Virus record (IMG/VR): IMGVR_UViG_3300045988_175607
Coordinates: 1-47,955 of that record
Source: a virus
Reading direction: 5' to 3' (one strand)
DNA length: 47,955 bases
In this document: positions 1-47,955 of the stretch, one piece after another
How positions within the stretch are numbered: position 1 is the stretch's first letter
How the letters are laid out: the number at the start of each line of letters is the position of its first letter
The notes under the pieces: model-generated
Seen by the model: the letters and a program-made list of their open reading frames with translations, nothing else
Database searches by the model: none
What the model was told of the DNA's origin: nothing
Made by a program: the position numbers and the translations under genes

Positions 1-100
1 TTGGACAATCAGCAACCAAGCTCCGAATAGGAGAAGGCTCATCGACTATCGAAATTAATAGTAGAGTAGGGAATCCCCGAAGCGCAAGAAATTCAAGCTT
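1..100 (+). ncRNA. 3' core segment of a group I-type intron (gyrB/nrdD family) that begins upstream of the window; 5' strand of a hairpin (90-100 aattcaagctt) whose 3' strand is at 4843-4853
   Basis: cgactatcgaaa...gtagagtaggg...ccgaagcg.aagaaattcaag at 42-100 is collinear with the 3' cores of the nrdD introns (34991-35075 and 36612-36660). 90-100 is the exact reverse complement of 4843-4853. Confidence 0.55.
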
Positions 101-144
101 AAATAATTATGGACAAAATAAAAATAAAATAAAGGAGGTGTAGT

Positions 145-777
145 ATGGCCGCTGAAAATACTCCAATTCTATATACAGATTTATCGTCACTTATTACTCG
201 TTTACAAAACGTTTATACTACACATGGTTTAAGTTGGGATTGGAATGTATCTGGTAGCGAAGTAGGTGTTTACCCTCTTTCCACAGAAATAACAACACTT
301 TATAATAAATTCGTTGCTGCTCAAACAGAAGAGCATTTGGCAACTTGTGTAAAATGGACTATTGTCAATGGGGAACTAAGTTCTGGCTCCCCTTTGAAAG
401 ATGAAACTTTGAATGCGGCAGCTGCATCTCTCTTATCTATGGAAGCGAAAACGCATTATTCAAGAGTGGTTAATACTGCTGGTGCATTATATACACAGAC
501 CTCTCATTCTAATCAAACCACTTATAGCGAATCTTCTAATACAGCTGGTACTTCTTATTCAAATACCAGTAATGGTCGTAATTGCACTCAAAACTCTTCA
601 AGAAATGCTCAAAGTGGCAATAGTTCTAAATGCGGTTGCCATGTTGTATATAGTAGTGATTGTAGCCAATCCACCAATAGTGCAACAACCACGTATTCGG
701 AAACTTCATATAAAGCCGGCACAACTTATAGTCAAACAACAAATTCAAATGAAACCACTTATACATTTTCAGAATAA
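145..777 (+). CDS. hypothetical protein, C-terminal half made of Ser/Thr/Asn/Tyr-rich T-(T)-Y-S repeats with scattered Cys; candidate repeat precursor or structural protein
   Basis: Strong RBS aaaggagg 8 nt upstream of the ATG; 210-aa open frame; repeats TTYSESSNTAGTSYSNTSNG...TTTYSETSYKAGTTYSQTTNSNETTYTF. Confidence 0.6.
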   Translation: MAAENTPILYTDLSSLITRLQNVYTTHGLSWDWNVSGSEVGVYPLSTEITTLYNKFVAAQTEEHLATCVKWTIVNGELSSGSPLKDETLNAAAASLLSMEAKTHYSRVVNTAGALYTQTSHSNQTTYSESSNTAGTSYSNTSNGRNCTQNSSRNAQSGNSSKCGCHVVYSSDCSQSTNSATTTYSETSYKAGTTYSQTTNSNETTYTFSE

Positions 778-789
778 AAAGGTGAATAA

Positions 790-1236
790 ATGAATATTGA
801 TATAAATCAAGAGCCTATTGAAATTTTATTTAATATTAATAATATATTAAAACAAAATCAACTAGGGGAAGAAGAAAAACAGCAATTATCTGATATTTGT
901 GACATTCTATTGGAAAAAATAATTACTCGTCAAGGAAAATATCAAGTTATTCCTGTTGTAAATGATAATAATTATGATAGTGGCTATTTTGTTTCTTCAT
1001 TAGATTATCTTACAAAGCCATATCAAATACATGAACATAAATACATTGATAATGGCAATTTAAAATTGACTGAAGTATATTATACTGGCGCAAATGGTTT
1101 AAAATATCGAAAAGTTGCTTTTCCTGAAGTTTATAGAGACCCTGGTTTTTTATTGAATAATTCTTTGCTTGCCGAAAGACAAAAAAATATGGCATATCTT
1201 GCAAATAAACGTAATAAGGAGAATAAGAACATATGA
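790..1236 (+). CDS. hypothetical protein
   Basis: ORF of 148 aa; RBS aaaaggtgaa; translationally coupled (ATGA overlap) to the next ORF. Confidence 0.5.
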   Translation: MNIDINQEPIEILFNINNILKQNQLGEEEKQQLSDICDILLEKIITRQGKYQVIPVVNDNNYDSGYFVSSLDYLTKPYQIHEHKYIDNGNLKLTEVYYTGANGLKYRKVAFPEVYRDPGFLLNNSLLAERQKNMAYLANKRNKENKNI

Positions 1237-1550
1237 AAATTGGTATTTCATGTGATACAAATAATCAAACCTATGATATTCCTGATTTTTGGAATATTGA
1301 ATTTGGTGATAAAGAAGCTTTAGCCGAAACCCGTTTTTCATCTATTGGTCAAATTACTAATGCAAATCCTGCTGATCCAACACTTAAAAATATGAGCTTA
1401 AATTTTAAAGATTTAAATTCATTGGTGATTACCATTTATAATGATGATGGTGTTGCAATATATACTCAGATTTGTAATCGTTTAATTTATGCTATTCGTC
1501 GCGTAAATACAGAAAATAATTTTATAGAAAGTTTGTACTTCGTATCGTGA
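1233..1550 (+). CDS. hypothetical protein
   Basis: ORF of 105 aa; RBS aggagaataag; ATGA overlap with flanking ORFs. Confidence 0.5.
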   Translation: MKIGISCDTNNQTYDIPDFWNIEFGDKEALAETRFSSIGQITNANPADPTLKNMSLNFKDLNSLVITIYNDDGVAIYTQICNRLIYAIRRVNTENNFIESLYFVS

Positions 1551-1797
1551 ATGAATCTTTAATTAGTTTTACTTTATTTGGTCAAAAAATTGATATTTTA
1601 GAAAATATGGTAAAACAATGGGATTTAATTAATAGTGACGATGGTGTAGTTTTAACTCTTTTTAATTGTAAATTAACAGAATATCCGCATGAAATTTTTA
1701 ATGTTATTCTTAAAGGTGTGGATTATTCTAATATTCCCGCTTCAATTAATCCAATAGGTAATGATACATAGATTATAATTTTAAGGAAACATTTTTA
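1547..1797 (+). CDS. hypothetical small protein (74 aa to the TAG at 1769, or 82 aa if TAG is read through to the TAA at 1795)
   Basis: Coupled ORF; terminal TAG followed by 8 in-frame codons and then TAA. Confidence 0.4.
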
Positions 1798-1799
1798 AT

Positions 1800-45490: not shown

Positions 45491-45491
45491 A

Positions 45492-45884
45492 TTACTGTTT
45501 ATTTAATTTAACTTCTGCTTCAACTCTATTAGCAATATAAGTTTGTAAATCTCCAAGAGCAACAGATAAATACTCTTTTGCATCATCACTTAATATAGCT
45601 AATACATTGTTACAAGTATCTTCAAAAGCTTTTTTCTGCGCGGCTGCATCAAAAGAGCCGGAAGCCTTTAAAGAATCAACATAAGTCTAATTAGTTGCTA
45701 TTACACAATCTGTAATAGTTTGACTTAAAAGATCAATATATTTATGATATAAAGTATTGTCAACTTGTGTTTTCAGACTTTCTTTTTTCTTATTAATATA
45801 AGTAATTAAGAAAGTTGTCAATACCCCTAATAAAGGTATTATACATACTTGAAATATTTCATTTAATAATTTTAACCAATCCAT
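45492..45884 (-). CDS. small membrane protein (1 TM plus coiled C-terminus; 1 TAG sense codon), possibly holin-like or fibre-associated
   Basis: RBS gtgaggtaa; VCIIPLLGVLTTFLITYI; continues past the TAG at 45687. Confidence 0.45.
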
Positions 45885-45892
45885 GTTTATTA

Positions 45893-46699
45893 TTACCTCA
45901 CTTTGATCCAAACGCGACCATCAACAGAAACATTATTGCTGCCCCAAGTATCATAATTAGGTACAGCACTAATTGAGCCTATTACAGCTTGTGGATGATT
46001 TTGAATTTCTTCTTTAGTCATAATAGACACTGTGCCATTAGGACCTGAACAAACAAAATCACCAATATGCGTTCTATATTCGTCACGATTCTCATAAGTA
46101 TAAGCTAACACTCGGCCAGAAACAGCCAAGGGTGTTTTTGCCTTTTCAGTTTCACCAATTGCAAAGCCATAAGTATCAGAAACAATAGAACAACCATACA
46201 TAAGTCTTGCTTTACTGGGTTCTACTGCATCATTGCCCAATTCATACACAACTCGGCCAGGGTTTATTTGCTTATTACTTATGCGATATTCAGCATAGTC
46301 ATTCCAAACGGCGCCATAAACCTTCGCAGCATATATATTGCCTTGAACGCCTACGCCGCCAGCTACAGTAAGCGCGCCAGTGGTTGTGCTTGAGGCAGCG
46401 GTAGTGTTTGTAATACTGACTTTATTTGCGCCAATACCAATTGAACCATCGCTACCAACAACAAGACCGCCACTTGCAGGAACCATAACTATACCCGCTT
46501 TAGAGGTAGTTGCAATATCAACGGCTGCACTGCCGCCGCCTAAAGAACTACCACCGCCAACGCCACCTTCAACTATAAATATGCGACTTAAATCATCATC
46601 AAAACCCTGTTGTTGGGAGCGCTGCGCATAATCAATTGCATTTAATTTTACTATTGTTAAACTGGTAACAGCACCAGTAGTATTAATTGTATAAGGCAT
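45893..46699 (-). CDS. Gly-rich tail fibre-like protein
   Basis: 268 aa; GGVGGGSSLGGGS, GGVGVQG; RBS aaggagaa. Confidence 0.6.
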   Translation of the reverse strand: MPYTINTTGAVTSLTIVKLNAIDYAQRSQQQGFDDDLSRIFIVEGGVGGGSSLGGGSAAVDIATTSKAGIVMVPASGGLVVGSDGSIGIGANKVSITNTTAASSTTTGALTVAGGVGVQGNIYAAKVYGAVWNDYAEYRISNKQINPGRVVYELGNDAVEPSKARLMYGCSIVSDTYGFAIGETEKAKTPLAVSGRVLAYTYENRDEYRTHIGDFVCSGPNGTVSIMTKEEIQNHPQAVIGSISAVPNYDTWGSNNVSVDGRVWIKVR

Positions 46700-46726
46700 T
46701 AATCTTACATTCTCCTTTCTTAGCGT

Positions 46727-47296
46727 TTAAACATCTACTTTAATAAATACTATAATGTCTGTTCCTATAGTAAACGAACATTCAGTTTCATTAGTACTTA
46801 ATGCTATTGGAGGAGGATTGCTGGCACTGTAACTACCAAAGATTTCACTTGCTGAAGAAACGCCTCCAGTATAAGTAAAAATCCTAAAACCCTTTGCGTC
46901 ATTATATCGAAGTGTTATTTGCCGACCTTGCAAAACAAAACAGTCATTATCTGTTTGTTGATCATCGCTTGGAGCTGAAGAAGCAGTACCAAAACCTGAG
47001 CCACCACACAAGAAATAACTAGACTTGCCATTTGGGTCAGTAAAAGCAGCAGGGGTTAAATCTAAAAACTGACTAACAAGCTAAGTATCTGTCGTGGTGC
47101 TAGGTACCATAATAATGCTTACTCGGCAATAAACTTGGCATTTTTCAACATTAACATTTAAATCAGATACATCATCAGGCACTAAATATAGTTCATTTGC
47201 ATTTAATTCAGAACCTTCACTCAGCTCAGTATATTTAGATTTATTTAATATATTAAGAACTAATTGTGCCTATTGATCAGTATATTCATTTGCCAT
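46727..47296 (-). CDS. hypothetical late structural protein (2 TAG sense codons)
   Basis: RBS aaagggggaa; 189 aa. Confidence 0.5.
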
Positions 47297-47523
47297 AAAA
47301 AGTTTATTCCCCCTTTTCTCTCTGTATTATATAATTTTTATTCATTTGAAATGAATCAAATATGGCCAAAAAGAAAAGGTTTTTTCTTCTTTCTTTCTCT
47401 ATTCTATAAGAAAGTTCTTATAAAAGTATAAATTTCTTTTGCCCATAAAGATTCTGTTAATTTATATAAAAAAATGTTAAGATTCTGTTAAGATAGCGCC
47501 GAGAATCCAAGCTTAAAAATCCT

Positions 47524-47955
47524 AATAGGTAATTAAATTTCTGTAAATACGCCATTAGAACTATATTCTCTTTTAGGTATTGGCAATTTATTTCCTTCAC
47601 CTTTATCAACAACTGTAACATCCAATTGTGGAATAGTTAAATCGTCTATTGGTGCAATAGTTCCATTGCCTATTGCTCCTTTATGAATACGGAAGTTTTG
47701 CATATAGCCTCGGAAGTAAGAACCAGCATTTGTACTATTTTCCGCCTAATGTCCAATAGCCATTGGGTATGTTGAAGAATACCAAAATCCATAGTTATTA
47801 CAAGTATACACATTAGTTTTTGTACCATTAATATATTCATACATAACAGTGCCTATACGTTCATAGCGACGATGTGTCCAGGTATTTATAGTATTCGCTG
47901 TCATAGCTTTCTAAGACCAAATTGTCCAGTTAGAACCATTCGAAACCCCATAACT
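47524..47955 (-). CDS. C-terminal (lectin/LamG-like) domain of a late protein whose start lies beyond the window; 2 TAG sense codons
   Basis: ...NAGSYFRGYMQNFRIHKGAIGNG... Confidence 0.45.

What the first reader, a model, noticed from the sequence alone, without database searches (positions are those of the whole stretch)
1..47955. Exceptional load of self-splicing-type elements: seven clear group I-type introns in six genes, a partial intron-like element at the window start that appears to split phoH, and an intein, falling into two intron families
Family A (phoH?, gyrB, nrdD x2) has a CGACUAU(C)CC...GGGA hairpin, GCUAACG core and AUAGUCAGUACCA(W)UAG..UUAUACG 3' end. Family B (Sak4 x2, dut, late gene) has CGGAAGG, GCAACGCAUAG, UCCACGAG, AGAUAUGCYGAAC and an AUAAAAAG-loop hairpin. 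Cargo ranges from none to GIY-YIG, HNH, LAGLIDADG, PD-(D/E)XK and a possible six-gene operon. This implies recent intragenomic intron spread and makes correct gene calling impossible without splicing-aware annotation. For comparison, T4 has three group I introns in about 169 kb.
Basis: partly seen in the sequence, partly recalled or inferred. Interest (0 to 1): 0.8.

Follow-up and report, generated by a model that had tools for sequence, protein, structure and literature searches.

The report
Intron-packed replication genes of a gut phage
A 48-kb stretch of a roughly 176-kb gut phage genome has eight mobile self-splicing (group I) introns in six genes plus one intein; such intron-rich gut phages are already known, but one of these introns carries a seven-gene enzyme cassette instead of the usual single nuclease gene.

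Summary
The window has eight intervening sequences in six genes (phoH, gyrB, sak4 x2, nrdD x2, dut, a late gene) and a 416-aa intein in the PolIII-alpha gene. Each one is absent, at the predicted junction, from a related strain or homologous phage gene. All eight end in G, and seven follow a U.

Four introns are T4 td-like. An independent covariance model scores gyrB at 111 bits and nrdD-1 at 101 bits. The interrupted phoH half (20.5 bits) and nrdD-2 (13.9 bits) match only weakly.

The other four form a second family that Rfam's group I model misses. It is common in phage contigs and has a group I-type P3/P7 pseudoknot topology, with 94.6% of cells paired and 42 of 53 pairs covarying.

The phoH intron is about 5 kb. 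Its P8 loop holds seven ORFs, two of them radical-SAM/SPASM enzymes, where a related phage has a LAGLIDADG nuclease gene.

"Recent intragenomic spread" is not supported, because the copies are only 49-83% identical. "Exceptional" is overstated: Jug phages average 18.5 group I introns per genome, and a paper I read cites crAss-like phages as intron-rich too.

The phage reads TAG as a sense codon (probably Gln), which explains the apparently broken endonuclease genes. Splicing itself is inferred, not shown.

The parts
1..4895 (+). phoH group I intron (family A). The window holds all but its first 109 nt; the whole intron is 5005 nt.
   Evidence: Exon 1 lies upstream, ending at L005:9101 (CTTGGGT|). 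P1 is CUUGGGU/GCUCAAG and the last intron base (omega-G) is at 4895. An uninterrupted phoH in L099 joins L005:9101 directly to window 4896. The spliced protein gives one continuous Pfam PhoH match, positions 8-194 of 205.
1..122 (+). phoH intron core: P7 5' strand (CGACTAT), P7.1/P7.2, P3' and the 5' arm of P8
   Evidence: R2 hit at 39-138, 20.5 bits, E=0.02. The region aligns to the same intron in L105.
145..4816 (+). Seven-ORF cargo in the P8 loop: 145-777, 790-1236, 1233-1550, 1547-1771, 1800-3125 (radical SAM), 3131-3427 and 3431-4816 (radical SAM/SPASM, PapB-like)
   Evidence: Family matches are all below the curated cut-offs. The same seven ORFs occur in the same order, free-standing, in other phages L231/L232. 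The orthologous intron in L105 holds a LAGLIDADG gene at this position instead.
4823..4895 (+). P8 3' arm, J8/7, P7 3' strand (ATAGTCAG), P9 hairpin and the 3' splice site
   Evidence: A 28-bp stem with one bulge pairs this arm with window ~90-118, at -33.7 kcal/mol. The arms are almost invariant in 7 strains; L098 has two small changes in the 3' arm.
4896..5314 (+). phoH exon 2
   Evidence: 15 synonymous against 2 non-synonymous codon changes versus L098, which also carries the cargo.
6925..8665 (+). gyrB exon 1
   Evidence: The junction comes from L001.
8666..9847 (+). gyrB group I intron (family A, td-like)
   Evidence: It is exactly absent from strain L001. Splicing gives RNKG|LGEQ. R2 scores it at 110.8 bits. 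The ORF-less ortholog in L004 scores 40.9 bits against Rfam Intron_gpI.
8850..9725 (+). GIY-YIG homing endonuclease ORF with six in-frame TAG codons
   Evidence: With TAG read as Q, Pfam GIY-YIG scores 33.8 bits against a cut-off of 22.6. The motif reads YIGqS.
9848..10035 (+). gyrB exon 2
18187..18261 (+). sak4 (AAA_24) exon 1
18262..18584 (+). sak4 intron 1 (family B, no ORF); the last exon base is G
   Evidence: It is absent from L008 and L013, which read TATGGAGAG|CCAAAAAGT. R1 scores it at 117 bits, but this sequence was in the model's seed. L011 and L014-L016 carry the same intron with a LAGLIDADG ORF.
18585..18872 (+). sak4 exon 2
18873..19954 (+). sak4 intron 2 (family B)
   Evidence: It is absent from L011 and L014-L016. 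R1 halves score 54.7 and 88.5 bits. Splicing gives YG|KGY.
19028..19837 (+). LAGLIDADG endonuclease ORF, placed between the P7 5' strand and the conserved CCACGAG (the P7.1 position)
   Evidence: Pfam LAGLIDADG_3 scores 39.2 bits against a cut-off of 22.5.
19955..20578 (+). sak4 exon 3
   Evidence: The spliced protein gives a full-length AAA_24 match, positions 2-195 of 195, E=2.8e-40.
29020..30267 (+). 416-aa intein inside the PolIII-alpha gene (ORF 27703-32760)
   Evidence: It starts with Cys (CFAENTKV), ends with His-Asn (VIVHN) and is followed by Cys. It is exactly absent from strain L226, which reads ...SAILTA|CRGYRT.... It is also absent from L019. Pfam Intein_splicing scores 29.7 bits, below the 35.8 cut-off.
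33422..34594 (+). nrdD exon 1
34595..35114 (+). nrdD intron 1 (family A, td-like), with an 88-aa ORF of unknown function at 34710-34976
   Evidence: L018 and L019 are contiguous across this site. R2 scores it at 100.9 bits and Rfam Intron_gpI at 26.4 bits. Splicing gives MG|CRSFL.
35115..35690 (+). nrdD exon 2
35691..36781 (+). nrdD intron 2 (a divergent family A member)
   Evidence: L018 and L019 are contiguous across this site. The R2 match is only 13.9 bits, E=0.004 in a local search. Splicing gives NSYH|VPVF.
35903..36607 (+). HNH-type endonuclease ORF in nrdD intron 2
   Evidence: PHROG 374 (HNH endonuclease), E=1.3e-17. There is no Pfam hit.
36782..37162 (+). nrdD exon 3
   Evidence: The spliced 709-aa NrdD aligns over residues 1-709 to uninterrupted homologs.
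38722..39063 (+). dut exon 1
39064..40524 (+). dut intron (family B), with its ORF in the P1 loop
   Evidence: The exon end GUCGGU pairs with GCCGAC at about 40284. R1 scores 129 bits over 40302-40525, and this copy was not in the model's seed. L018 and L019 have an uninterrupted dut. L023 and L069 are interrupted at the same residue, 114|115.
39168..40283 (+). 371-aa endonuclease ORF with in-frame TAG codons (probably Vsr-like PD-(D/E)XK)
   Evidence: PHROG homing endonuclease and intron-encoded nuclease families, E from 1e-16 to 1e-24. Pfam gives only DUF5889, below its cut-off.
40525..40728 (+). dut exon 2
   Evidence: The spliced protein gives a single Pfam dUTPase stretch, residues 76-176, across the junction.
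44528..44624 (-). Late-gene exon 1 (Gly-rich small membrane protein)
43731..44527 (-). Late-gene intron (family B)
   Evidence: R1 halves score 70.6 and 88.6 bits. L018 has an uninterrupted homolog. L019 has an ORF-less copy at the same site with a compensatory change in P1, CUUGGU/GCCAAG to CAUGGU/GCCAUG.
43882..44367 (-). HNH/NUMOD endonuclease ORF with one in-frame TAG
   Evidence: Pfam HNH_3, NUMOD4 and I-HmuI_NUMOD-like all score above their cut-offs.
43030..43730 (-). Late-gene exon 2

Best explanation
The window is the replication module and the start of the late module of a roughly 176-kb phage found in gut metagenomes. Its replication genes follow the Bacillus phage SPbeta order, and part of the genome reads TAG as a sense codon (probably glutamine).

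Six of its genes are interrupted by eight group I introns. Four are of the classical phage td-like (IA2-like) type. The other four belong to a second family that is widespread in phage contigs but poorly covered by Rfam. That family has the group I helix order P1, (P2), P3, P4, P5, P6, P7, P7.1, P3', P8, P7', P9, P9.1.

Inferred mechanism, by analogy with studied group I introns:
1. Each pre-mRNA folds so that the end of the 5' exon pairs with an internal guide sequence (P1).
2. An external guanosine attacks after the last exon base.
3. The freed exon then attacks after the intron's terminal G, which joins the exons and restores the reading frame.

Most of the introns carry a homing endonuclease gene in a peripheral loop: GIY-YIG, LAGLIDADG, HNH (two) and a probable PD-(D/E)XK type. 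Such an enzyme cuts intron-less alleles during co-infection and copies the intron in. This would explain why closely related strains differ in which sites are occupied.

Some of the endonuclease genes contain in-frame TAG codons. They could therefore be translated only once the phage's TAG-reading machinery is active, as already proposed for recoded phages.

In the phoH intron the endonuclease position, the P8 loop, is occupied by a conserved seven-gene cassette with two radical-SAM/SPASM enzymes. A 28-bp stem closes this loop, and I infer that it brings the two halves of the ribozyme together.

The PolIII-alpha gene also carries a canonical Cys...His-Asn|Cys intein, which would be removed at the protein level.

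Shown here: the boundaries, the absence alleles, RNA covariation, the endonuclease families, and selection on the exons. Inferred: that splicing, homing and delayed endonuclease translation actually happen.
For: Intron-less alleles or homologs exist at all eight sites:
- gyrB in L001
- sak4-1 in L008 and L013, and sak4-2 in L011 and L014-L016
- nrdD-1 and nrdD-2 in L018 and L019
- phoH in L099
- dut and the late gene in L018

The intein is absent from L226.

Splice-site features. Seven of the eight introns follow a U that can pair with G in P1, and all eight end in G. The spliced proteins give single full-length domain matches for AAA_24 (2-195 of 195), PhoH and dUTPase, and the spliced NrdD aligns over residues 1-709.

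Family B structure. Across 63 ORF-less IMG/VR copies, 94.6% of cells are paired, against 30-42% when the partners are slid. 42 of 53 pairs change on both sides, and 0 of 500 shuffles reach the observed values. Model R1 finds four loci in the window.

Family A. Rfam Intron_gpI scores 40.9 bits (E=7e-9) on the ORF-less gyrB ortholog and 26.4 bits on nrdD-1. The independent model R2 scores 110.8 and 100.9 bits.

Endonuclease families.

phoH intron. The orthologous intron in L105 carries a LAGLIDADG gene in P8. The cassette is free-standing in other phages. Exon 2 shows 15 synonymous against 2 non-synonymous changes between two cargo-bearing lineages. Hairpins vary between strains in a compensatory way. 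There is no terminator inside the cargo, and a strong one follows exon 2.

TAG as a sense codon. Reading through TAG restores the lysin, the RuvC-like protein, the endonucleases and the late genes. TAG aligns with Q at conserved PhoH positions.

Against: - No RNA data were available for this phage.
- Rfam's group I model reaches its gathering score on none of the elements. It essentially misses family B: 13.6 bits on sak4-1 and no hit on the ORF-less copy in L019.
- sak4 intron 1 follows a G paired with C, not the conserved U.G wobble.
- nrdD-2 matches R2 only weakly, at 13.9 bits.
- A 4.7-kb loop inside a ribozyme may fold poorly.
- The P8 stem shows no covariation, because it is almost invariant across the strains.
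- P3 complementarity was one of my criteria for selecting the family B alignment, so its pairing percentage is partly built in.
- No suppressor tRNA was found in the roughly 55 kb of the source contig that I could read.
Confidence: 0.87

Rival explanations
1. Some of the elements are dead relics. The phoH intron, swollen by a 4.7-kb cassette, and sak4 intron 1, which lacks the U.G splice-site pair, would no longer splice. Those genes would then be split pseudogenes, or would be expressed as fragments.
For: - No group I intron with a multi-gene, non-nuclease cargo turned up in my one targeted literature search.
- sak4-1 follows a G, not a U.
- Public gene callers report only fragments of these genes.
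Against: - phoH exon 2 shows 15 synonymous against 2 non-synonymous changes between two lineages that both carry the cargo.
- The intron core is conserved, with compensatory changes in its hairpins.
- PhoH is intact in the more distant L105, which has the same intron.
- The sak4-1 site splits the Walker A motif (YGE|PKSGKTT), so an unspliced gene would be inactive. Even so, the intron and both exons are kept intact in eight strains.
Confidence: 0.1
2. Family B is not a group I intron but a different kind of structured intervening RNA, such as a distinct ribozyme class or a protein-dependent intron.
For: Rfam RF00028 gives 13.6 bits (E=0.5) on sak4-1 and no hit on the ORF-less copy in L019. The invariant CCACGAG segment has no assigned role.
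Against: - The helix order and the P3/P7 pseudoknot are those of group I, and covariation is strong.
- J8/7 plus the P7 3' strand (AAGAUAUGC) parallels the group I consensus AAGAUAUAGUC seen in the Rfam alignments.
- Every copy ends in G. A U pairable with G precedes the intron in three of the four window copies and in the copies in L019, L069, L109 and L200.
- The family carries the same classes of homing endonuclease.
- R1 gives a weak cross-hit to a family A intron.
Confidence: 0.04
3. The introns multiplied recently inside this one genome, by transposing from gene to gene.
For: There are two sequence families with four members each in 48 kb. gyrB and nrdD-1 share long identical 3' motifs.
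Against: - The 3' domains of the copies are only 49-83% identical.
- The family B copies are about as similar to copies in unrelated contigs, at 50-85%.
- The same sites are occupied in distant phages.
- Each intron carries a different endonuclease.
- Both motif sets recur in at least 118 and at least 119 IMG/VR stretches.
Confidence: 0.07
4. The interruptions are assembly chimeras or misjoins in a metagenome contig.
For: The source is a metagenome assembly.
Against: The same arrangement, at 98-100% identity, occurs in many independent assemblies from different samples and pipelines.
Confidence: 0.01

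Closest known systems
Phage T4 td / nrdB / nrdD (sunY) and Staphylococcus phage Twort group I introns (subgroup IA2)
   Same: From my own knowledge of the td and Twort sequences: family A shares with them the P7 strands GACUAU/AUAGUC, the P7.1/P7.2 hairpins, the J8/7 sequence AAGAUAU, the U.G pair in P1, the terminal G, insertion in nucleotide-metabolism genes, and endonuclease ORFs in peripheral loops. The model R2, built from td-like introns, scores 111 and 101 bits. 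According to PMC11835236, more than half of viral group I introns are IA2.
   Different: Local density is far higher: eight introns in 48 kb against three in about 169 kb for T4. Some of the endonuclease ORFs contain TAG sense codons. One intron carries a seven-gene cargo.
Intron- and intein-rich gut phages: Jug phages (PMC12880540) and crAss-like phages (cited in that paper)
   Same: Many essential genes are fragmented by group I introns, stand-alone endonucleases and inteins. In Jug phages this includes nrdD, terL and DNA polymerase genes. Content varies between strains, and the genes are mis-called by standard annotation. [quoted passage not shown]
   Different: This is a different phage lineage, with an SPbeta-like replication module and a PolIII-alpha polymerase, and probably a Firmicutes host. 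Jug phages use the standard genetic code, whereas this phage reads TAG as a sense codon. Local density here is about one intron per 6 kb, against about one per 20 kb genome-wide in Jug phages. No multi-gene intron cargo is mentioned in the passages I read.
Recoded intron endonuclease in Agate phages (Borges et al., bioRxiv 10.1101/2021.08.26.457843)
   Same: An endonuclease gene inside a group I intron in an early gene carries in-frame recoded stop codons. The authors propose that this delays endonuclease production until late in infection.
   Different: In Agate phages the recoded codon is TGA, read as Trp. Here it is TAG, probably read as Gln, and it occurs in at least three intron ORFs: GIY-YIG, the dut-intron nuclease and the late-gene HNH.
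Bacillus phage SPbeta (yorF-yorL replication module; bnrdE/bnrdF introns and intein)
   Same: Pfam YorF and YorH matches, and the gene order YorF, AAA_24, YorH, DnaB, primase, DHH, PolIII-alpha. From my own knowledge, SPbeta also has group I introns and an intein in its ribonucleotide reductase genes.
   Different: Sequence identity is low; only a short ligase match to Clostridium phage c-st was found in the phage collection. This phage has far more introns, and TAG is a sense codon.
Group I introns with unusual cargo (the Clostridioides difficile IStron; mitochondrial introns with several endonuclease ORFs, such as the five-HEG intron noted in PMC11835236)
   Same: A group I ribozyme that tolerates several kb, or several ORFs, in a peripheral loop.
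   Different: In those cases the cargo is a mobility gene (a transposase or homing endonucleases). Here it is a conserved seven-gene cassette with two radical-SAM/SPASM enzymes, which is free-standing in other phages.

Membership tests
Group I intron - family A (phoH, gyrB, nrdD-1, nrdD-2) | The last exon base is U, paired with G of an internal guide sequence (P1) | tested here: met
   Met in all four:
- phoH: CUUGGGU/GCUCAAG
- gyrB: AAGGGU/GGCCCUU
- nrdD-1: CAUGGGU/GCUCAUG
- nrdD-2: CCAU/GUGG

Group I intron - family A | The intron ends in G (omega-G), and removing it restores the reading frame | tested here: met
   The last intron bases at 4895, 9847, 35114 and 36781 are all G. Intron-less alleles or homologs are contiguous at these junctions.
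Group I intron - family A | A match to a curated group I covariance model (Rfam RF00028, gathering score 50 bits) | tested here: inconclusive
   The whole window gives no hit, because the ORFs interrupt the cores. The ORF-less gyrB ortholog in L004 scores 40.9 bits, E=7e-9, over the full model length, and a second gyrB-site intron scores 19.5 bits. nrdD-1 scores 26.4 bits. All are below the gathering score.
Group I intron - family A | A conserved catalytic core (P7 enclosing P7.1/P7.2, P3' and P8, followed by P9) shared with known td-like introns | tested here: met
   R2, built from IMG/VR td-like 3' domains, scores gyrB at 110.8 bits, nrdD-1 at 100.9 bits and the phoH half at 20.5 bits. nrdD-2 scores only 13.9 bits, so the feature is clearly met for two and weakly for two.
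Group I intron - family B (sak4-1, sak4-2, dut, late gene) | A U.G pair at the 5' splice site | tested here: inconclusive
   Met in three: sak4-2 (CGGU/GCCG), dut (GUCGGU/GCCGAC) and the late gene (CUUGGU/GCCAAG). Not met in sak4-1, where the last exon base is G, paired with C (GGAGAG/CUCUCC).
Group I intron - family B | The intron ends in G, and removing it restores the gene | tested here: met
   All four end in ...TG. The junctions are confirmed by L008, L011 and L018.
Group I intron - family B | Group I helix order with the P3/P7 pseudoknot, a P4-P6 domain and P8, supported by covariation | tested here: met
   In 63 sequences, 94.6% of cells are paired and 42 of 53 pairs change on both sides. 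Controls with slid partners give 30-42% paired. P7 is invariant and so uninformative. P3 pairing was a selection criterion for the alignment.
Group I intron - family B | A match to Rfam RF00028 | tested here: not met
   13.6 bits, E=0.5, on sak4-1. No hit on the ORF-less copy in L019. The subgroup-specific models (GISSD / Selles Vidal 2025) were not available.
Group I intron - both families | Guanosine-dependent self-splicing | not testable with these tools
   This needs RNA-seq junction reads or an in-vitro splicing assay.
Class 1 intein with homing endonuclease | N-terminal Cys/Ser, C-terminal His-Asn, and Cys/Ser/Thr as the first residue of the C-extein | tested here: met
   CFAENTKV...VIVHN|C.
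Class 1 intein with homing endonuclease | A Hint / intein splicing domain | tested here: inconclusive
   Pfam Intein_splicing scores 29.7 bits against a cut-off of 35.8. Two LAGLIDADG-like motifs (LLGIWLAEGS and FKGWVMGDGY) are visible in the sequence but were not scored.
Class 1 intein with homing endonuclease | In-frame insertion that is absent from otherwise identical alleles | tested here: met
   Strain L226 has a 1269-aa PolIII-alpha that joins ...SAILTA|CRGYRT... exactly.
Homing endonuclease cargo | A curated family match for each intron ORF | tested here: inconclusive
   Above the Pfam cut-offs: GIY-YIG (with TAG read as Q), LAGLIDADG_3, and HNH_3/NUMOD. PHROG matches only: the nrdD-2 ORF (HNH) and the dut ORF (homing or intron-encoded nuclease). 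The PD-(D/E)XK assignment rests on the FDF...IEYDG motif alone. The nrdD-1 ORF has no meaningful match.
Genetic code 15 (TAG = Gln) phage | In-frame TAG in otherwise intact genes, aligned with Gln in homologs, plus a suppressor tRNA | tested here: inconclusive
   Reading through TAG restores many genes. TAG aligns with Q at 4 of 8 comparable PhoH positions and falls in the YIGqS motif. No tRNA gene was found in the window or in about 55 kb of the source contig.

The most novel reading that the evidence does not exclude
The phoH intron is an active group I ribozyme whose P8 loop has swapped its homing endonuclease gene for a seven-gene cassette. The cassette includes two radical-SAM/SPASM enzymes and is normally free-standing in other phages. 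If so, a self-splicing intron is serving as a harmless landing pad, or a vehicle, for a multi-gene functional module, and a 28-bp closing stem lets a 5-kb intron still splice.

Two secondary oddities may be further programmed recoding events in the same phage. First, sak4 intron 1 seems to splice after a G paired with C instead of the U.G wobble. Second, two replication genes have conserved frame-breaking sites: a 5-nt TAACT insert in the RecD-like helicase gene, and CUU UGA C in the PolIII-alpha gene.
Probability: 0.55. Interest if true: 0.7.

Novelty: new variant of a known kind. Interest (0 to 1): 0.55.

Why it matters
Practical point. Standard gene callers split at least seven essential genes of this common gut phage into fragments, and they also truncate genes at TAG. 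This phage group therefore needs annotation that is aware of both splicing and the genetic code. The coordinates given here allow its genes to be reconstructed correctly.

Biological points:
- The differences in intron and intein content between near-identical strains, at about a dozen sites, are a natural record of endonuclease-driven gene conversion between co-infecting phages.
- Family B appears in more than 100 IMG/VR contig stretches but is missed by the Rfam model. Scans based on that model alone will therefore under-count phage introns.
- If the phoH intron splices, it shows that a group I intron can carry a multi-gene metabolic cassette. That would widen what intron cargo can be, and it suggests one route by which accessory genes could be inserted into essential genes at no cost.

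The overall phenomenon, an intron-rich gut phage, is already published. The main claim is therefore confirmatory rather than surprising.

Tried and rejected
- Rfam on the whole window found no group I hit at the gathering score or at E<=10. The ORFs interrupt the cores, so I searched ORF-less orthologs and sub-regions instead.
- A search of GenBank phages with the gyrA-ligase region found only short ligase matches, so no cultured close relative was identified.
- My first regular expressions for family A, and the first IMG/VR alignment (A2), were contaminated with coding-sequence false positives. I filtered the set before building R2.
- I looked for alternative splice sites in sak4 intron 1 that would give a U before the intron and a G at its end. 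None restores the Walker A motif or the sequence of the intron-less allele, so all were rejected (reasoning).
- At gyrB site 2 in related strains, the DNA alignment suggested boundaries without a U or a terminal G. This was resolved by a synonymous GCT/GCG difference in the exon. It shows that alignment-derived junctions can be one base off.
- I looked for a terminator inside the phoH cargo, which would have favoured trans-splicing or a dead intron. None was found.
- I looked for a suppressor tRNA. None was found in the sequence available to me.
- Building a full P1-P9 structure for family A by hand gave inconsistent P3 and P6 assignments. I dropped it and relied on the covariance models.
- The function of the late gene and of cargo ORFs 1-4 and 6 remains unknown; no Pfam, NCBIfam or PHROG hits were found.

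Full report
**What the window is.** ORF listing and domain searches show a low-GC phage region. On the + strand it encodes phoH, a lysin, gyrB, gyrA, an NAD-dependent ligase, YorF, an AAA_24/Sak4 protein, YorH, DnaB, a primase, a DHH/RecJ-like protein, a RecD-like helicase, PolIII-alpha, a kinase, nrdD, nrdG, dut and a RuvC-like protein. Late genes lie on the - strand from about 41.8 kb. The window is 100% identical to ENA contig ERZ27250529:k119_226633 (176,020 bp). Near-identical contigs occur in many other samples. The gene order YorF, AAA_24, YorH, DnaB, primase, DHH, PolIII-alpha matches the SPbeta replication module (Pfam names; the SPbeta gene order is from my own knowledge).

**Check of the observation.** Reading the sequence around each broken gene gave candidate boundaries with a U before the intron and a G at its end. 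I then looked for alleles without the insertion. Related strains and related phages provide one for every site:
- gyrB is uninterrupted in L001, where window 8665 joins 9848.
- sak4 intron 1 is missing in L008 and L013. sak4 intron 2 is missing in L011 and L014-L016.
- Both nrdD introns are missing in L018 and L019, with contiguous DNA alignments across 34594|35115 and 35690|36782.
- phoH is uninterrupted in L099-L104 and L106, joining L005:9101 to window 4896.
- dut and the late gene are uninterrupted in L018.

The spliced translations give single full-length domain matches: AAA_24 positions 2-195 of 195, PhoH 8-194 of 205, and dUTPase across the junction. The spliced NrdD aligns over residues 1-709. 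The count is therefore eight introns in six genes. Seven lie wholly in the window, and the eighth is the phoH intron, whose first 109 nt are upstream.

**The intein.** It spans residues 440-855 of the PolIII-alpha ORF (nt 29020-30267). It begins with Cys, ends with His-Asn and is followed by Cys. It is exactly absent from strain L226 and from L019. The Pfam Intein_splicing match is below its threshold.

**Are they group I introns? Family A.** The Rfam model finds nothing in the whole window, because the ORFs split the cores. Strain L004 has the gyrB intron without its ORF. There the Rfam model aligns over its full length at 40.9 bits (E=7e-9), which is still below the 50-bit gathering score. 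A second gyrB-site intron in L004 scores 19.5 bits. The nrdD-1 3' half scores 26.4 bits. I built an independent model, R2, from 60 td-like 3' domains taken from IMG/VR, with no window sequence in the seed. It scores gyrB at 110.8 bits, nrdD-1 at 100.9 bits and the interrupted phoH half at 20.5 bits. It scores nrdD-2 at only 13.9 bits, with a full-length alignment. All four have a P1 with a U.G pair and end in G. By my own knowledge of the T4 td and Twort sequences, the cores are of the IA2 type. nrdD-2 is a divergent member.

**Are they group I introns? Family B.** Rfam essentially fails here, with 13.6 bits on sak4-1 and nothing on an ORF-less ortholog. The core motif CCACGAG...AAGATATGCYGAAC recurs in at least 118 IMG/VR stretches. 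From these I took 63 ORF-less copies and wrote down a structure: P3, P4, P5, P6, P6a, P7, P7.1, the invariant CCACGAG, P3', P8, J8/7, P7', P9, P9.1, and a GAUAACA...G tail.

On that alignment 94.6% of cells are paired, against 30-42% with slid partners. 42 of 53 pairs change on both sides, and no shuffle out of 500 reaches the observed values. Two caveats apply: P3 complementarity was a selection criterion, and P7 is invariant. The helix order, the P3/P7 pseudoknot, the A-rich J3/4 and a J8/7-P7' sequence that parallels the group I consensus are those of a group I intron with a subgroup-IA-like P7.1. The model R1 finds exactly four loci in the window. The dut, sak4-2 and late-gene copies were not in its seed. 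P1 covaries between orthologs: in the late gene CUUGGU/GCCAAG becomes CAUGGU/GCCAUG in L019. Similar sequences sit unannotated in cultured phages of Listeria, C. difficile, Bacillus, Yersinia and others.

**One anomaly.** sak4 intron 1 is flanked by G, not U. The intron-less allele reads TATGGAGAG|CCAAAAAGT, and P1 is GGAGAG/CUCUCC. I found no alternative splice-site pair that keeps the Walker A motif. The arrangement is conserved in eight strains, so it probably splices, but it departs from the rule.

**Cargo.**
- gyrB: a GIY-YIG ORF, intact only if its six TAG codons are read as sense.
- sak4-2: LAGLIDADG.
- Late gene: HNH/NUMOD, with one TAG.
- nrdD-2: HNH-like (PHROG only).
- dut: a 371-aa nuclease with TAG codons, lying in the P1 loop. 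It matches PHROG homing and intron-encoded nuclease families. The FDF...IEYDG motif suggests a Vsr-like PD-(D/E)XK fold.
- nrdD-1: an 88-aa ORF with no match.
- sak4-1: none.

**The phoH intron.** Its P8 loop holds seven ORFs (145-4816). Two are radical-SAM/SPASM proteins, with weak matches to PapB-type and SCIFF-type maturases that all fall below the curated cut-offs. Four observations argue that this is a real intron with unusual cargo and not a wreck:
1. The same intron at the same phoH site in a related phage (L105) has about 1 kb in P8, encoding a LAGLIDADG nuclease.
2. The seven ORFs occur in the same order, free-standing and without phoH or intron halves nearby, in other phages (L231/L232). 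L233, next to a terminase-like gene, has the last five of them.
3. The two halves of P8 form a 28-bp stem at -33.7 kcal/mol. There is no terminator inside the cargo, and a strong one follows exon 2.
4. Between two lineages that both carry the cargo, exon 2 has 15 synonymous and 2 non-synonymous codon changes. Hairpins in the intron change in a compensatory way.

**How the introns got here.** The 3' domains of the copies within this genome are 54-83% identical in family B and 49-72% in family A. The family B copies are about as similar to copies in unrelated contigs. The same insertion sites are occupied in distant phages: nrdD G|CR, dut G|(I/V)D, and the late gene. Related strains also carry introns at sites that are empty here: two more in gyrB, at the EG|DSA and DA|DPDG motifs, one in dnaB and one in PolIII-alpha. 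The ligase gene of L011 is also split by an insert, which I did not examine further. This is the signature of endonuclease-driven homing between co-infecting relatives, not of a recent burst inside one genome.

**Genetic code.** Treating TAG as a sense codon restores the lysin, the RuvC-like protein, the DHH protein, phoH exon 1, three intron nucleases and most late genes. TAG aligns with Gln at conserved PhoH positions and in the GIY-YIG motif YIGqS. No suppressor tRNA lies in the sequence I could reach. Recoded intron endonucleases have been described for Agate phages, where the authors suggest that translation is delayed until late in infection (bioRxiv 10.1101/2021.08.26.457843).

**Comparison with the literature.** Jug gut phages average 18.5 group I introns per genome. 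Their nrdD, terL and polymerase genes are fragmented, and metatranscriptome reads support splicing of 37 of 76 predicted introns (PMC12880540). The same paper cites crAss-like phages as carrying multiple introns and inteins. The phenomenon is therefore established. The local density here, about one intron per 6 kb, is high, but I could not obtain the genome-wide figure. One targeted literature search (group I intron, radical SAM, phage, phoH) returned no group I intron with a multi-gene, non-nuclease cargo. An intron with five endonuclease ORFs is mentioned in PMC11835236.

**Verdict.** The most interesting parts are the seven-gene cargo in the phoH intron and the non-canonical sak4-1 splice site. 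A third is the combination with TAG recoding and two conserved frame-breaking sites in replication genes. None of the splicing is demonstrated; RNA data would decide it.

Noticed in passing
window 5374-6306, 8850-9725, 14984-15988, 24106-25926, 39168-40283, 40721-41218, 41243-41800 and most - strand genes 41818-47955: TAG is used as a sense codon, probably Gln (genetic code 15), in the lysin, the intron nucleases, the RuvC-like protein, the DHH/RecJ-like protein, phoH exon 1 and the late genes. Most of the core replication genes avoid it. No tRNA gene was found in the window or in about 55 kb of the source contig.
   Followed up: partly
window 26285-26400 (insert TAACT at 26378-26382): The RecD-like helicase gene is broken inside its Walker A motif by 5 nt. 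It reads GYA-TAACT-GSGKST, with TAA in frame. The same 5 nt are kept in two other phage species (L018, L019), even though the flanking synonymous sites differ. They are exactly absent in strain L227, where the gene is a single 398-aa ORF. This looks like a programmed recoding or bypass site, with no obvious slippery sequence.
   Followed up: partly
window 27546-27710 (CTT TGA C at 27603-27609): The N-terminal 20 codons of PolIII-alpha (the PHP motif HNHTWYS) are in a different frame from the main ORF. A +1 shift is needed at CUU UGA C, the same heptamer as the bacterial prfB (RF2) frameshift site. The site is identical in five independent assemblies (L225-L229) and absent in L019, which is in a single frame.
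   Followed up: partly
window 18255-18275: sak4 intron 1 has G, not U, as the last exon base, paired with C in P1. This is a departure from the near-universal U.G wobble at the group I 5' splice site.
   Followed up: partly
window 8750-8815 and 39075-39145; L105 6000-6065: A shared AT-rich element sits just upstream of the TAG-containing intron nuclease ORFs. It reads ...AAATCTT..GTTTGGTGAA..TTTTAATTTTTATATATAATA, with a similar sequence in L105. It may be a phage promoter that drives late expression of the endonucleases.
   Followed up: no
L002 17423-18506; L002, L003 and L004 from about 17656; L007 and L016 about 11150-12200; L011 1263-2291; L019 6123-7400: Related strains and phages carry introns at sites that are empty in the window: two more in gyrB (after EG| of EGDSA and inside DADPDG), one in dnaB with a GIY-YIG ORF, and one in PolIII-alpha. 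The ligase gene of L011 is split by an insert that R2 did not match and that I did not examine further. The set of occupied sites differs from strain to strain.
   Followed up: partly
L231 4621-9368, L233 3017-6526, L234 6686-9359: In other phages the radical-SAM cassette found in the phoH intron is a conserved module outside any intron. In one case it lies next to terminase-like and structural genes. It may act on a virion or other late protein.
   Followed up: partly
window 34710-34976: nrdD intron 1 carries an 88-aa ORF (MIKVYRYEREDGGGPWF...) that matches no nuclease family. It is either a new kind of intron cargo or a remnant.
   Followed up: no
window 14984-15988: A free-standing gene with three in-frame TAG codons encodes a hydrophobic N-terminus, a long Glu/Lys/Gln-rich stretch and a C-terminal GIY-YIG domain. 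This architecture is unusual for a homing endonuclease.
   Followed up: no
L005 1632-4073 (upstream of the window): An 813-aa protein with a Pfam MVP_shoulder match and a weak Vault_3 match (major vault protein-like) is encoded about 5 kb upstream of phoH in all strains.
   Followed up: no
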